The notes beneath the pieces are model-generated. The model saw only the letters and a list, made by a program, of their open reading frames with translations. It was not told the DNA's origin and made no database searches. From a virus: a stretch of 64,000 bases of DNA. Made by a program: the position numbers and the translations under genes. The DNA lies in IMG/VR virus record IMGVR_UViG_3300032316_000329, positions 101,115 through 165,114 of that record. One strand, given 5' to 3'. Positions 2,719 to 46,794 of the stretch are shown here, piece by piece; positions within the stretch are counted from its first letter, which is position 1, and the number at the start of each line of letters is the position of its first letter.

Positions 2719-4425
2719 ATGGCATATCAACTTTCACCAGGTGTGACATGGTCCGAAATAGATTTGACGACCGTTGTTCCCGCCGTTGCTACTACTGAAG
2801 GAGGTTTTGCCGGAGATTTTGATTGGGGTCCTGTTAATGAGATTAAGACCGTTGCCAATGAAGTAGAACTTGTTCGTTATTTTGGTAAACCAAGTGCTAA
2901 TACCTTCAAATCATTTTTCACCGCTGCAAACTTTCTAAATTATGGACAGAACTTACGCCTAATTCGTTCTGCCAATACAACCGTTGCTAAAAACGCTACA
3001 AACGGTACAGCACTACTTATTAGGAATAAAGATCAGTATGAAGTAGAGTATATGGATCTTTCTGCCGCAAATACAGCAGGTATGTTTGCAGCACGTTATG
3101 CAGGCGATCTAGGAAATAGCATTAGAGTTTCGCTTTGGGCTTCTTCTAATTCCATAGCATTTAATAGCTGGACATATGCAGAAGAATTTCCAGGTGCTAC
3201 AGCAACATCAAACTTTACTGGTACAAGAGGTGGTGCTAATGACGAAATGCATATCATCGTAGTTGACGTTGATGGTAGAATTTCTGGTTACGCTAACACC
3301 GTTCTAGAAAAATTTGCCTATGTATCTAAAGCATTTGATGCAAAGAACGATGATGGTTCTTCTAATTACTGGGTAAATATTATTTCTGATAAGTCAGAAT
3401 ACATTTATGCCATGAATCCTGCACAGAACACCACTACACAGGTTGTAGAAACTACAACTTGGGGTTCAACTGCCGCAAATACTACATTTGCTCAGACATC
3501 AAATGAATATACAGCAAGACTAGCAGGAGGTTCAGTTGCAGCACCAACCGATGCTGATCTATCTAGATCCTATGATCTATTTGTTAATTCTGAAGATGTT
3601 GATGTTTCCTTAATTATGACCGGTGCTGCTTCTCAGACAGTTTCCGAATATATTATCAATAACATCGCAGAAGTTCGTAAAGATTGTGTTGTATTCATTT
3701 CACCACTTTACGCCGATGCTGTTAATAACGATGGCGGTGAGGTTACCGATATTGTTGCTTATCGTAACGATTTCCCATCTTCATCTTATGCTGTTCTAGA
3801 TTCAGCATGGAAGAAACAGTTTGATAAATATAACAATGTTTATCGTTGGATTCCTTTCAATGGCGACATTGCCGGTCTTTGTGCCCGCACAGACTTTGAT
3901 CGTGATCCATGGTGGTCACCAGCTGGTCTAAATCGTGGTATTATCAAGAATGTTACAAAACTTTCTTGGAATCCATCAAAAGCTGAAAGAGACGATCTTT
4001 ATAAGAATGGTATTAACCCGATTGTTCAGTTTGCTGGCGAAGGCACAGTCCTTTACGGTGATAAGACAATGCTTGCTAAACCGTCTGCGTTTGATCGTAT
4101 TAATGTCCGTCGTCTTTTTATTGTCCTTGAAAAGGCAATTTCAAGAGCGGCAAAATACTCACTCTTTGAGTTCAACGATGAATTTACAAGAGCGCAGTTT
4201 ATAGCCCTAGTTGAACCTTTCCTGCGTGATGTCAAGGGCCGTCGTGGTATCTATGACTTCAAGGTTGTTTGTGACGAAACAAACAACACACCAGAGGTCA
4301 TCGACAGAAACGAATTTGTCGGAGACATTTACATTAAGCCAGCCCGTGCCATTAACTTTATTCAGCTTAATTTCGTGGCTGTTAGAACTGGTGTTGCCTT
4401 CTCCGAAGTTGTTGGCAAATTTTAA
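2719..4425 (+). CDS. gp18: Tail sheath protein
   Basis: LSPGV..SEIDLT N-terminus, WWSPAGLNRG, FDRINVRRLF, IYIKPARAINFIQLNFVAVRTG. Confidence 0.97.
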   Translation: MAYQLSPGVTWSEIDLTTVVPAVATTEGGFAGDFDWGPVNEIKTVANEVELVRYFGKPSANTFKSFFTAANFLNYGQNLRLIRSANTTVAKNATNGTALLIRNKDQYEVEYMDLSAANTAGMFAARYAGDLGNSIRVSLWASSNSIAFNSWTYAEEFPGATATSNFTGTRGGANDEMHIIVVDVDGRISGYANTVLEKFAYVSKAFDAKNDDGSSNYWVNIISDKSEYIYAMNPAQNTTTQVVETTTWGSTAANTTFAQTSNEYTARLAGGSVAAPTDADLSRSYDLFVNSEDVDVSLIMTGAASQTVSEYIINNIAEVRKDCVVFISPLYADAVNNDGGEVTDIVAYRNDFPSSSYAVLDSAWKKQFDKYNNVYRWIPFNGDIAGLCARTDFDRDPWWSPAGLNRGIIKNVTKLSWNPSKAERDDLYKNGINPIVQFAGEGTVLYGDKTMLAKPSAFDRINVRRLFIVLEKAISRAAKYSLFEFNDEFTRAQFIALVEPFLRDVKGRRGIYDFKVVCDETNNTPEVIDRNEFVGDIYIKPARAINFIQLNFVAVRTGVAFSEVVGKF

Positions 4426-44779: not shown

Positions 44780-45067
44780 ATGATGAAATATTTGATGACA
44801 ACCTTAATGGTGGTATTCCCCACGGTTACTAATGCACAATATCATTCTTTGAGTGGTGGCCCTGTAACAGATATTCCTGCTTTCTCTTGGGAAAATCCAA
44901 GATGGAGTGAAGGTTCAACCGCATTTAATGCTAGCCCACATCAACTACCTACGGCATCAGCACCTACGATGGTTCCTTCATTTGCTCCTGATAGTCGTGG
45001 TACTGCCGCTGCCGGTGGTTTTATTCCACCTTCAAGATTGAATAATGACTTCGGAAATATGGACTAA
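44780..45067 (+). CDS. Small predicted secreted protein (mature N-terminus QYH)
   Basis: Signal-like MMKYLMTTLMVVFPTVTNA followed by QYHSLSGGP... Confidence 0.6.
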   Translation: MMKYLMTTLMVVFPTVTNAQYHSLSGGPVTDIPAFSWENPRWSEGSTAFNASPHQLPTASAPTMVPSFAPDSRGTAAAGGFIPPSRLNNDFGNMD

Positions 45068-45156: not shown

Positions 45157-45164
45157 ACTAAATA
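45157..45164 (+). promoter_or_regulatory. Late promoter motif ACTAAATA upstream of pmoC
   Basis: Identical octamer to those before gp21 and gp22; followed by hairpin GGGTCC/GGACCC (45172-45191) and an AGGAG RBS. Confidence 0.7.
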
Positions 45165-45215
45165 TCTTATCGGGTCCTATTACCGGGACCCTAAGAAAAA
45201 CAATAGGAGTGATAA

Positions 45216-45986
45216 ATGAGCGTTGTAAATCGAGCGGCAACAGCCGTGGCTACCGGCGTTGACAGTAAGGTCGTTGACCTTCGAGGAATGTGGATAGGAC
45301 TCGCAACCTTAAACATATTCTATTTAATTGTCCGTATCTATGAACAGGTTTTCGGTTGGCGTGCCGGCCTTGACTCGTTCGCACCAGAGTTCCAGACATA
45401 TTGGATGTCTATTCTTTGGACGGAAATCCCACTAGAACTTGTTTCAGGTCTTGGTCTTGCGGGTTATCTTTGGAAGACCCGTGATAGAGACCTAGCAAAT
45501 GTAGCACCTCGGGAGGAGTTGCGTCGTTTGGTAACACTGGTTCAGTGGTTGGTTGTTTATGCTGTTGCTATTTACTGGGGTGCAAGTTTCTTCACTGAAC
45601 AGGATGGTACATGGCATATGACAGTCATTCGTGATACTGACTTCACTCCGTCACATATCATTGAGTTCTACATGAGTTATCCAATCTACTCAATTATTGC
45701 TGTTGGTGCGTTCTTCTATGCCCGCACCCGTATTCCTTACTTTGCTCAGGGATATAGTTTGGCATTCTTGATTGTTGCAATTGGTCCATTCATGATTATT
45801 CCAAATGTTGGACTTAATGAGTGGGGCCATACATTCTGGTTCATGGAAGAACTATTCGTTGCTCCGCTTCATTGGGGTTTCGTGTTCTTCGGTTGGATGG
45901 CATTAGGCGTCTTTGGTGTTGTTCTACAAATCCTTGGACGAGTTCATGCCCTTGTTGGTAAAGAAGGTTCTGCCCTTCTAACCTAA
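45216..45986 (+). CDS. pmoC: Particulate methane monooxygenase subunit C
   Basis: GLDSFAPEFQTYW, EQDGTWH..IRDTDFTPSH (CuC ligands D/H/H), PNVGLNEWGHTFWFMEELFVAPLHWGF (CuD ligands N/H/H). Methylocystis-like N-terminal region. Confidence 0.98.
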   Translation: MSVVNRAATAVATGVDSKVVDLRGMWIGLATLNIFYLIVRIYEQVFGWRAGLDSFAPEFQTYWMSILWTEIPLELVSGLGLAGYLWKTRDRDLANVAPREELRRLVTLVQWLVVYAVAIYWGASFFTEQDGTWHMTVIRDTDFTPSHIIEFYMSYPIYSIIAVGAFFYARTRIPYFAQGYSLAFLIVAIGPFMIIPNVGLNEWGHTFWFMEELFVAPLHWGFVFFGWMALGVFGVVLQILGRVHALVGKEGSALLT

Positions 45987-46003
45987 AAATAGGAGAGAAA
46001 GAA

Positions 46004-46138
46004 ATGGGTAATAAAAAACTATATAGATTTTTGTTCTTGGTTCTTTCGTGTTTGATTCTACAGGTGTCCTTTAATCCTACATATGCTCATCATGATGGAT
46101 CAAGTGGTGTGGTATATGAAGGTGCTGGAGGAAGATAA
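46004..46138 (+). CDS. Unannotated 44-aa secreted peptide; predicted mature HHDGSSGVVYEGAGGR
   Basis: Hand translation [28 protein letters not shown]|HHDG...; AGGAGA RBS; 17 nt after the pmoC stop and before the terminator. Confidence 0.7.
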   Translation: MGNKKLYRFLFLVLSCLILQVSFNPTYAHHDGSSGVVYEGAGGR

Positions 46139-46146
46139 AAATTAAG

Positions 46147-46172
46147 GGGTGGGATTAGTTCCCACCCTTTTT
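46147..46172 (+). terminator. Rho-independent terminator closing the pmoC-peptide unit
   Basis: GGGTGGGA-TTAGT-TCCCACCC-TTTTT. Confidence 0.88.
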
Positions 46173-46287
46173 GTATGTAAACATCGGTTATGCTATTTTT
46201 GACATAATAACCGATTATGCAGGAAATAACATAAACAAATGTAAACAGGGTGCGACAATATGTCGCATTGACTCCTATAAAAGAACC

Positions 46288-46794
46288 TTATAGGATGTAT
46301 TCACATTTGTCAAAATGCCATCTTTTCATAGCTGGTTTTTGGCCTACTTTACCACAATGAGGACAAATGACTTTTTCCTGGTTTATTTCCAGAAAATGGT
46401 GTGTTCCATTTGACAATCGTTCCTTTTGTCTATTGGATGCCGCTTCTCTATCAAGGAAAGGATGTTTTCCTTCTTTTGCCTGCCTTTTAGCATTTATTGA
46501 CCTTAGTTTTTTTCCGTATTCCGTTGCTTTATGTCCTTCCACACCATCACCACCATCGGTCAGGTTTCTCAATATACCTGTTCCGTTATCCTTACGACCA
46601 TACCAACGAATATAGAACCTTTCCAAGGCCAAGGCGCCAACTTCCGTAAGATTGGATTCCATAATGACTATTTTTGATTTATCCTTAGGAACGGAAACAC
46701 TATGCCCTATATTCCAGGCTCTGGTTCCTTTTCCTTTTCCGATATAATATGGTGTTAGATTGTCTTTGCGTAGGTAGGCATAAATATAAAACAT
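46288..46794 (-). mobile_element. Free-standing GIY-YIG (Seg-like) homing endonuclease gene
   Basis: YIYAY..PYYIGKG..R, LERFYI..YGRKD...LRNLTDGG, C-terminal CPHC..WHFDKC. Opposite strand to its neighbours. Confidence 0.8.

What the first reader, a model, noticed from the sequence alone, without database searches (positions are those of the whole stretch)
45157..46172. pmoC appears bicistronic with an unannotated secreted His-His peptide (candidate phage copper-binding peptide)
Seen: late motif ACTAAATA, then pmoC, a 17-nt gap with an AGGAGA RBS, a 44-codon ORF (46004..46138, below the ORF-track cutoff) and one terminator. The ORF reads [28 protein letters not shown]|HHDGSSGVVYEGAGGR: basic n-region, hydrophobic h-region and a PTYA cleavage site, which would leave a 16-aa peptide starting His-His-Asp. 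Established: pMMO is a copper enzyme, and signal cleavage that exposes an N-terminal His creates Cu sites in PmoB, CopC and LPMOs. Inference: the phage co-expresses a minimal periplasmic Cu carrier to metallate its own PmoC. I know of no description of this.
Basis: partly seen in the sequence, partly recalled or inferred. Interest (0 to 1): 0.9.

Follow-up and report, generated by a model that had tools for sequence, protein, structure and literature searches.

The report
Exported mini-peptide gene behind phage pmoC
A real, strongly conserved 44-codon gene sits directly behind the methane-monooxygenase gene pmoC of this phage and encodes an exported peptide of about 16 residues from an undescribed family; a copper or pMMO-helper role is plausible but untested.

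Summary
pmoC (45216-45986) is followed by a 17-nt gap with AGGAGA, a 44-codon ORF (46004-46138) and one terminator (46144-46176).

The ORF is a gene. About 29 clusters of homologues exist. Synonymous sites in the mature part are saturated (pS 0.4-1.1) while pN is 0.00-0.25.

The N-terminal 23-28 residues diverge freely but keep basic residues, a 19-23-residue uncharged span and an invariant Ala at -1. The C-terminal 16-18 residues are nearly fixed: X-H-[DE]...GVV[YF]EG[AS]GG[RK].

In every phage contig examined (more than 20, six sequence types) the gene lies 15-57 nt after pmoC, although flanks and promoter types differ. Most pmoC phages lack it.

Bacterial copies are never beside pmo genes. 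They lie between tRNA-Val and an integrase or integrase remnant, in uncultured methylotrophic relatives of Methylocystis.

The first His (H29) is not conserved in phages (H/D/A/S/N). The second (H30) is invariant. This fits an Xaa-His amino-terminal Cu(II) site, not a conserved N-terminal-His brace.

The copper-carrier reading is partly supported, at about 0.35. Rivals are an AmoD/AmoE-like pMMO accessory peptide and unrelated mobile-element cargo. I found no description of this family.

The parts
45157..45164 (+). CTAAATA-type late-promoter-like motif, 51 nt before the pmoC start
   Evidence: Strand bias is 18:1. The motif lies 19-31 nt before head protease, scaffold and tail tube genes. It is conserved before pmoC in L003, L004, L008, L018, L038 and L052.
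45172..45191 (+). Hairpin in the pmoC 5' leader (GGGTCC / GGACCC)
   Evidence: Read from the sequence. A similar hairpin is kept in all CTAAATA-type upstream regions. Function not tested.
45216..45986 (+). Phage pmoC, 256 aa
   Evidence: Pfam AmoC E=1.2e-108. 90-93% identical to Methylocystis/Methylosinus PmoC.
45991..45996 (+). Shine-Dalgarno AGGAGA of the sORF, 7 nt before the ATG
   Evidence: Every homologue has a purine-rich SD at a similar distance.
46004..46087 (+). Signal-peptide part of the sORF (28 codons, ending T-Y-A)
   Evidence: Three basic residues, a 20-residue uncharged span and Pro at -4. Across 37 variants, -1 is always Ala and -3 is A/T/V/S. This part diverges freely between lineages.
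46088..46138 (+). Predicted mature 16-residue peptide (HHDGSSGVVYEGAGGR) plus stop codon
   Evidence: Invariant H(+2) and GVVxEGxGG in the 10-sequence alignment; near-invariant D/E(+3), Tyr and C-terminal R/K. pS 0.4-1.1 against pN 0.00-0.25.
46144..46176 (+). Intrinsic terminator closing the pmoC-sORF unit
   Evidence: 11-bp stem with 6 GC pairs, then a T-run. In L002 the same hairpin follows pmoC directly and the sORF cassette is absent.

Best explanation
The sORF is a genuine gene transcribed with phage pmoC. The unit runs from a CTAAATA late-type promoter to one shared terminator.

The 44-residue product is exported by the Sec pathway. Signal peptidase I most likely cuts after the invariant Ala. 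This would release a 16-residue periplasmic peptide with a free amino terminus, an invariant His at position 2, an acidic residue at position 3 and a fixed C-terminal block GVV[YF]EG[AS]GG[RK].

Most likely mechanism (inferred): the amino terminus with His2 and Asp3 (plus His1 in this phage and in all bacterial copies) forms an Xaa-His type Cu(II) site. The peptide would then hold or hand over periplasmic copper, or sit on the periplasmic face of pMMO, while new PmoC is inserted late in infection.

Shown: gene reality, purifying selection, signal-peptide architecture, strict adjacency to pmoC in phages, family distribution.

Inferred: export, cleavage, Cu binding, any effect on pMMO.
For: (1) Coding and selection. 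The mature core has 4-11 synonymous against 0-1 non-synonymous differences between bacterial copies. pS is 0.4-1.1 against pN 0.00-0.25 over all pairs.

(2) Signal architecture. It holds in all 37 variants scored, with Ala at -1 invariant while the rest of the N-terminal part diverges completely. Host PmoB has a near-identical c-region (APASA then His), and its N-terminal His is a known Cu ligand (PMC11725843).

(3) Linkage to pmoC. In every phage context examined the gene lies 15-57 nt after pmoC on the same strand. Downstream genes differ (unnamed 143-188-aa ORFs or hsp20; a reverse-strand 168-aa ORF in the window), and three different promoter types precede pmoC. Neither the IMG/VR pattern scan nor the phage contexts examined showed a copy away from pmoC.

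(4) Chemistry. A free amino terminus with a neighbouring His is a structure-independent metal chelator (PMC12537917; PMC10952591). That Xaa-His peptides such as GHK bind Cu(II) tightly is my own knowledge.

(5) Hosts. The phage PmoC is of Methylocystis type. The reference genome nearest to a bacterial carrier contig (PurK 90%) has fae, and the next nearest (71%) has fae and a lone pmoC with a PCuAC gene close by.

(6) Parallel case. In the 59-64%-identity pmoC-phage clade the same slot after pmoC holds pqqA, another tiny peptide gene of the methane pathway.

(7) Precedent. Small extra subunits of copper membrane monooxygenases were found only recently.
Against:
- The best conserved block, GVVYEGxGG[RK], has no clear metal role.
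- Only 2 of 80 IMG/VR pmoC loci (L003, L013), plus the window itself, carry the gene. The pmoC tree shows scattered presence, which implies repeated loss, so PmoC works without it.
- Bacterial copies are monocistronic between tRNA-Val and an integrase or its remnant, not near pmo or cop genes.
- The gene was not found in M. parvus, M. rosea or Ms. sporium, nor in about 800 Rhizobiales genomes sampled.
- Adjacency in phages may be inherited linkage. The sORF has no promoter of its own and sits inside the pmoC unit.
- There are no expression data. Chen et al. found the small Methylocystis-type pmoC phages transcriptionally silent in their samples.
Confidence: 0.35

Rival explanations
1. Mobile-element cargo unrelated to pMMO or copper. 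On this reading the peptide is a periplasmic factor carried by phages and tRNA-Val islands, for example for superinfection exclusion, defence or signalling. It is linked to pmoC only because it was once inserted between pmoC and its terminator and is inherited or lost with that cassette.
For: - All bacterial contexts resolved place it between tRNA-Val and a tyrosine integrase: intact in L205, a 90%-identical remnant in L216, a 60%-identical remnant in L184. This is a typical slot for accessory genes expressed from integrated elements (my own knowledge).
- Toxin-antitoxin genes lie nearby in L182-L186.
- Most pmoC phages lack it, and a clean indel separates the window from L002.
- It has no neighbour in common with pmo or cop genes in bacteria.
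Against: - Near-identity of the mature peptide between phages and bacteria, with saturated synonymous sites, fits a fixed chemical or housekeeping target better than an arms-race function.
- It is kept after the integrase has decayed.
- In phages it was not found apart from pmoC, in any context examined or in the IMG/VR pattern scan, despite shuffled flanks and promoters.
- Here it is in a late-type unit, whereas exclusion genes of T4-like phages are early (my own knowledge).
Confidence: 0.3
2. An uncleaved signal-anchor micro-protein. The hydrophobic segment would stay in the membrane, N-terminus inside and C-terminus outside, as a supernumerary single-helix subunit packed against PmoC. It would resemble the 46-residue helix (AmoD) of Nitrosomonas AMO or the 23-residue helix of Methylocystis sp. 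Rockwell pMMO. The conserved tail would lie at the periplasmic surface.
For: - The uncharged span is a constant 19-23 residues and the best 19-residue Kyte-Doolittle mean is 1.7-2.4, enough to span a bilayer.
- Size and predicted orientation match the N. europaea helix and AmoD.
- Such helices sit beside AmoC/PmoC, and the gene here is beside pmoC.
Against: - The hydrophobic part is the least conserved part and carries a 4-residue indel in L003-type copies.
- Ala at -1, a small residue at -3 and often Pro at -4 to -6 are kept in all variants, which a plain anchor does not need.
- The profile search of PDB chains found nothing down to E=10; I did not check that the extra-helix chains are among the chains searched.
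Confidence: 0.15
3. A cleaved peptide that is a structural accessory of pMMO with no copper-carrier role. The GVVYE stretch would add as a beta-strand to the edge of a periplasmic domain such as the PmoB cupredoxin. This would resemble AmoE, or the unassigned periplasmic densities seen in native membranes, and would stabilise the complex or its arrays.
For: - The strongest conservation is in a beta-prone V-V-Y/F block flanked by glycines.
- Tucci and Rosenzweig describe an unidentified density that forms a parallel beta-sheet with the PmoB N-terminal cupredoxin edge strand and reaches CuB. They also describe an unassigned 14-residue periplasmic peptide in AMO.
- AmoE is a small soluble periplasmic subunit.
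Against: - No structural test was possible.
- The density in M. capsulatus appears joined to a lipid, and this peptide has no conserved lipobox Cys.
- The gene was not found in cultured Methylocystis or Methylosinus genomes.
- A short-word comparison with PmoA, PmoB, PmoC and PCuAC showed nothing meaningful.
Confidence: 0.12
4. Precursor of a modified peptide or cofactor, in the manner of PqqA or MbnA.
For: It is tiny, has a conserved Tyr-Glu pair, and pqqA occupies the same slot in other pmoC phages.
Against: - It has a Sec-type signal instead of a cytoplasmic leader.
- No maturation enzyme gene is adjacent in any of the contexts.
- It does not match TIGR02107 or any NCBIfam or Pfam model.
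- Tyr is replaced by Phe or Asn and Glu by Asp in some members.
Confidence: 0.04
5. A chance ORF or a non-coding spacer.
For: It is short, below usual gene-calling cut-offs, and lies in AT-rich DNA.
Against: Conservation across about 29 clusters, an SD in every copy, and synonymous far exceeding non-synonymous change.
Confidence: 0.02

Closest known systems
Supernumerary small subunits of copper membrane monooxygenases: the 46-residue helix/AmoD and the soluble AmoE of Nitrosomonas AMO, and the 23-residue helix of Methylocystis sp. Rockwell pMMO (PMC11725843, PMC12804982)
   Same: Tiny, previously unannotated products that act beside the C subunit or on the periplasmic face. Size (44 aa) and predicted N-in/C-out topology are similar. 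Here the gene is physically joined to pmoC.
   Different: There is no sequence similarity. Here the hydrophobic part looks like a cleavable signal and the conserved part is the short periplasmic tail. Binding to pMMO is not shown. amoD and amoE are not encoded next to amoC.
Amino-terminal copper sites exposed by signal cleavage: PmoB CuB, CopC, PCuAC, YcnI, LPMO histidine brace (PMC10952591, PMC12537917)
   Same: A Sec signal ending small-x-Ala, followed in this window and in all bacterial copies by His. Host PmoB has an almost identical cleavage region.
   Different: The brace needs His at position 1 plus a distant His in a folded domain. Here position 1 varies in phages, the invariant His is at position 2, and the product is an unfolded 16-18-mer. 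It fits the Xaa-His (GHK-like) peptide motif better, and it is not ATCUN, which needs His at position 3.
pqqA next to pmoC in the 59-64%-identity pmoC-phage clade (L055-L057)
   Same: A peptide gene of fewer than 50 codons placed directly after phage pmoC.
   Different: PqqA is a cytoplasmic cofactor precursor with a known family model, TIGR02107. The sORF has a signal peptide and no family.
Copper-sensing exported leader peptides CruR/CutF (DUF2946) before lone pmoC genes (earlier scan note e1-5268630; seen here in L212)
   Same: A small exported His-bearing peptide gene associated with a stand-alone pmoC.
   Different: Those lie upstream, end in the arrest motif RAPP and regulate the gene behind them. 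This sORF lies downstream, ends in GG[RK] and is followed by a terminator.
psbA with hli genes in cyanophages (my own knowledge)
   Same: A T4-like phage carries a fast-turnover membrane core subunit of the host's energy enzyme together with a very small accessory protein gene.
   Different: HLIPs are one-helix pigment-binding membrane proteins. There is no homology, and the analogy is of logic only.

Membership tests
Sec/signal peptidase I signal peptide | Basic n-region, hydrophobic h-region, small uncharged residues at -3 and -1 | tested here: met
   1-3 Lys/Arg at the N-terminus and an uncharged span of 19-23 residues. Across 37 variants, -1 is Ala in 37 of 37 and -3 is A/T/V/S. SignalP itself could not be run.
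Sec/signal peptidase I signal peptide | Actual cleavage at the predicted site | not testable with these tools
   Needs mass spectrometry or N-terminal sequencing. A signal-anchor cannot be excluded from length or hydropathy.
Histidine-brace copper proteins (PmoB CuB, CopC, LPMO type) | Conserved His as the first residue of the mature chain | tested here: not met
   +1 is His in this window and in all bacterial copies, but D, A, S or N in most phage copies.
ATCUN motif | Free N-terminus with His at position 3 | tested here: not met
   Position 3 is Asp or Glu in all members.
Xaa-His (GHK-like) amino-terminal Cu(II) peptides | Free N-terminus with His at position 2 | tested here: met
   His at +2 is invariant in all family members seen, given the predicted cleavage site.
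Xaa-His (GHK-like) amino-terminal Cu(II) peptides | Measured specific Cu(II) binding | not testable with these tools
   Needs a synthetic peptide with EPR, ITC or competition titration.
Supernumerary helix subunits of pMMO/AMO (AmoD-like) | A stable transmembrane helix packed on the C subunit | tested here: inconclusive
   Hydropathy allows it, but the segment is poorly conserved and carries an SPase site. The profile search of PDB chains found no match.
PqqA | Match to TIGR02107 | tested here: not met
   No NCBIfam hit for the sORF or for P0035, while L055 and L056 peptides hit at E=2e-10 and 5e-10.
DUF2946 / CruR-type copper-sensing leaders | Upstream position and a C-terminal RAPP arrest motif | tested here: not met
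   The sORF is downstream of pmoC, ends in GG[RK] and is followed by a terminator. A true RAPP leader is seen in L212 for comparison.
Bacterial lipoproteins | Conserved lipobox Cys | tested here: not met
   Cys16 of the window copy is F, T, A or I in other lineages.

The most novel reading that the evidence does not exclude
A ribosomally made, unmodified, Sec-exported linear peptide of 16-18 residues acts as a periplasmic copper ligand or shuttle for particulate methane monooxygenase. It would dock through its GVVYE strand on the PmoB/PmoC periplasmic face. It would be spread among type II methanotroph relatives by T4-like phages and tRNA-Val islands, and it could account for some unassigned periplasmic densities in native-membrane cryo-EM maps.
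Probability: 0.12. Interest if true: 0.9.

Novelty: new variant of a known kind. Interest (0 to 1): 0.6.

Why it matters
How pMMO gets its copper, and which small partners it has in the membrane, are open questions. Extra subunits were recognised only in 2024-2025.

A peptide gene that phages keep fused to pmoC gives a concrete and cheap candidate to test. A 16-mer can be synthesised and titrated with Cu(II), and pmoC with and without the sORF can be expressed in a Methylocystis or Methylosinus strain.

It also shows that gene callers miss accessory genes in pmoC phages. Chen et al. 2020 reported PmoC as the only protein specific to these phages. Together with pqqA after pmoC in another clade, this suggests that phages tune methane oxidation with more than one gene.

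If the peptide proves unrelated to pMMO, it is still an undescribed and very conserved exported mini-peptide family of mobile elements in methylotrophs.

Tried and rejected

Searches with no hit for the sORF:
- Pfam, NCBIfam and PHROGs.
- A PDB profile search.
- The ESM Atlas gave only unnamed clusters at 0.79.
- GenBank phages by DNA and plasmids by tblastn.
- The pattern scan of 185,579 species genomes.
- M. parvus, M. rosea and Ms. sporium.
- 401 genomes of the order and 401 of the family. The positive control on the phage's own record worked.
- G688 and G753.

Other attempts:
- Naming the bacterial carriers failed, because handles carry no taxonomy. Only PurK identity and marker genes could be used.
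- A short-word comparison of the mature peptide with PmoA, PmoB, PmoC, PCuAC and the upstream 95-aa protein gave only trivial 4-mers.

Readings rejected:
- Lipoprotein, because the Cys is not conserved.
- Regulatory leader peptide, because it lies downstream and is followed by a terminator.
- Fused or longer forms. The exhaustive representative search found only mis-called N-terminal extensions and two spurious repeat proteins.

Lead not pursued: TTGTCAT-N4-TTGTCA(C/T) direct repeats before the sORF in L165/L205 and L170 looked like a response-regulator box. They are absent in L184, L082 and L083 and lie too close to the SD to act as a -35 replacement.

Full report
**Observation.**
- pmoC is at 45216-45986, with Pfam AmoC E=1e-108.
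- A 17-nt spacer carries AGGAGA.
- A 44-codon ORF follows at 46004-46138.
- A strong hairpin with a T-run lies at 46144-46176. There is no terminator between the two genes and no competing ORF on the other strand.

The upstream ACTAAATA is not significant as an 8-mer. Its core CTAAATA, however, occurs 18 times on the + strand and once on the - strand. It lies 19-57 nt before 11 gene starts, including head maturation protease, scaffold and tail tube genes. It is also kept before pmoC in six related loci. A late-type promoter is therefore a fair reading. Chen et al. 2020 saw pmoC co-expressed with structural genes in other pmoC phages, but found the small Methylocystis-type phages silent in their data.

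**Is the sORF a gene?** Yes.
- Direct homologues follow pmoC in L003 and L013.
- A metagenome scan gave three distant copies (read).
- An exhaustive profile search of 1.84 billion representatives gave five true clusters.
- A profile search of the 90% clusters gave 29.
- Over the 15 gap-free codons of the mature part, bacterial copies differ by 4-11 synonymous and 0-1 non-synonymous changes. All pairs give pS 0.4-1.1 against pN 0.00-0.25.
- Every copy has a Shine-Dalgarno sequence.

**Anatomy of the family.** The N-terminal 23-28 residues share almost no sequence between lineages. They always have 1-3 basic residues, an uncharged span of 19-23 residues, Ala at -1 (37 of 37 variants) and A/T/V/S at -3.

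The rest is nearly fixed:
- X-H-[DE]-[DGEN], then a short variable linker, then G-V-V-[YF]-E-G-[AS]-G-G-[RK] and the stop codon; single members depart at one position of this block (for example I for V, N for Y, D or E for E/G).
- Position +1 is His in this window and in every bacterial copy.
- Position +1 is D, A, S or N in most phage copies, even among variants otherwise identical to the window's.

This pattern is what a cleavable signal followed by a functional short peptide predicts. The c-region of the bacterial copies (PASA then His) is almost the same as that of host PmoB (APASA then HGEKSQ). The N-terminal His of PmoB is a ligand of CuB. An uncleaved anchor cannot be excluded from length or hydropathy.

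**Distribution in phages.** The phage record is 165,114 bp and about 99% complete. Its PmoC is 90-93% identical to Methylocystis/Methylosinus PmoC.
- In every phage context examined the sORF lies 15-57 nt after pmoC: the window, L003, L013, L171-174, L206-211, L219-224.
- This holds although downstream genes differ (unnamed 143-188-aa ORFs or hsp20; a reverse-strand 168-aa ORF in the window).
- It also holds although pmoC is preceded by three different promoter architectures.
- The gene is rare. Two of 80 IMG/VR pmoC loci carry it, besides the window itself.
- In L002 the roughly 150-nt cassette is exactly absent between the pmoC stop and the same terminator.
- On a pmoC tree the carriers are scattered, which implies repeated loss or recombination.
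- In L003 a hairpin separates pmoC from the sORF, so strict bicistrony is not universal.

**Distribution in bacteria.** Copies with mature HHDDA[KQRN]G... are monocistronic with their own terminator.
- They lie about 250 nt from a convergent tRNA-Val.
- On the other side is a tyrosine integrase in L205, or its remnant: 90% identical over 69 residues in L216 and 60% over 50 in L184.
- The flanking chromosome is syntenic (RNase D ... purEK).
- The gene therefore sits at the tRNA-proximal end of an integrated element that has decayed in some lineages while the sORF stayed intact.

On who the carriers are:
- They are uncultured alphaproteobacteria with 37-50% GC.
- PurK of L165 is 90% identical to G688 and 71% to G753. 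It is 62-69% identical to the remaining close matches in the family sample (among them the named M. parvus at 68% and Methylosinus sporium at 62%) and at most 59% to the other Rhizobiales in the order sample.
- G688 and G753 both have fae.
- G753 has a lone pmoC with a RAPP leader gene upstream and a PCuAC gene close by downstream.
- pmoA was found in neither partial genome.
- Bacterial-type and phage-type copies co-occur in two samples.
- The gene was not found in three cultured type II methanotrophs or in about 800 sampled Rhizobiales genomes.

**Interpretation.** It remains the single most likely mechanism, in modified form. The invariant feature is His at position 2 with an acidic neighbour, not an N-terminal His. 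I put it at about 0.35.

In favour:
- the chemistry;
- the strict dependence on pmoC in phages;
- the C1-utilising hosts;
- the parallel of pqqA after pmoC in the other phage clade.

Against:
- its rarity among pmoC phages;
- the lack of pmo or cop neighbours in bacteria;
- a conserved C-terminal block with no obvious metal role.

That block suggests binding to a partner protein. Recent native-membrane structures show small helices beside PmoC/AmoC, a soluble mini-subunit AmoE, and unassigned periplasmic densities at PmoB. This makes an accessory-subunit reading credible, whether cleaved or anchored. The mobile-element setting in bacteria keeps open a function unrelated to pMMO.

**Novelty.** No Pfam, NCBIfam, PHROG or PDB entry matches. 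Chen et al. 2020 do not use the words 'peptide', 'downstream' or 'pqq' in their main text, and they report PmoC as the only protein specific to pmoC phages. I found no description of this family in the papers searched.

Noticed in passing
L055:3842-3910, L056:2726-2797; L057 about 3840-3911: In the pmoC-phage clade that is 59-64% identical to this PmoC, a pqqA gene lies 71-74 nt after pmoC. TIGR02107 matches at E=2e-10 and 5e-10, above the cut-off. Viral pqqA is mentioned in a Lake Baikal study (PMC7678222), which I did not read. Its pairing with pmoC is not mentioned in Chen et al. 2020.
   Followed up: partly
L009:3957-4064: Another small ORF with a signal-like N-terminus lies 183 nt after pmoC. 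After the predicted site SAYA its short tail ends in C-G-N-C-F. It is unrelated to the family studied here, and its CxxC could be a metal site.
   Followed up: no
window 44780-45067: The 95-aa exported protein upstream of pmoC is conserved before pmoC in 16 related loci. It has a YHSLS...YSW.NPGWS.G motif.
   Followed up: partly
window, 18 sites on the + strand (for example 11023, 11702, 14616, 20142, 45158, 63305): CTAAATA behaves as this phage's late-promoter core. TATAAATA is absent from the window. Relatives drive pmoC from three different upstream architectures: CTAAATA, TTGTCT...CATATAAT, or TTGACT...TATAGTATAAATA.
   Followed up: partly
window 46288-46794 (- strand): The 168-aa ORF just after the pmoC-sORF terminator begins with a GIY-YIG-like motif (YIYAY...YYIGKGKG) by eye. 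Pfam gave only a weak zinc-ribbon hit. Relatives lie near pmoC in 7 loci, including the distant L071 and L072. It may be a homing endonuclease that helps move the cassette.
   Followed up: no
L212:113-2877 (- strand), genome G753: A lone pmoC paralogue is preceded by an exported Cys/His-bearing ORF with RAPP close to its C-terminus. Downstream come a 133-aa ORF and a PCuAC-like protein whose mature end starts with His and which ends in a His-rich tail. This is the arrangement an earlier scan note described for Methylocystis.
   Followed up: partly
L165:1100-1156, L205 (same region), L170:200-257: Direct repeats TTGTCAT-N4-TTGTCA(C/T) lie just before the Shine-Dalgarno sequence of some bacterial copies. 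They are absent in L184, L082 and L083. They could be a response-regulator or repressor site.
   Followed up: no
L003:3775-3800: A GC-rich hairpin lies between the pmoC stop and the sORF in the L003 lineage. There the sORF may be reached by read-through or have its own start signals.
   Followed up: no
L165:8466-8526; L083:790-862: A fluoride riboswitch precedes the outer-membrane efflux (OEP) gene in L165. An mmgR-family sRNA lies in L083, which supports an alphaproteobacterial origin for that contig.
   Followed up: no
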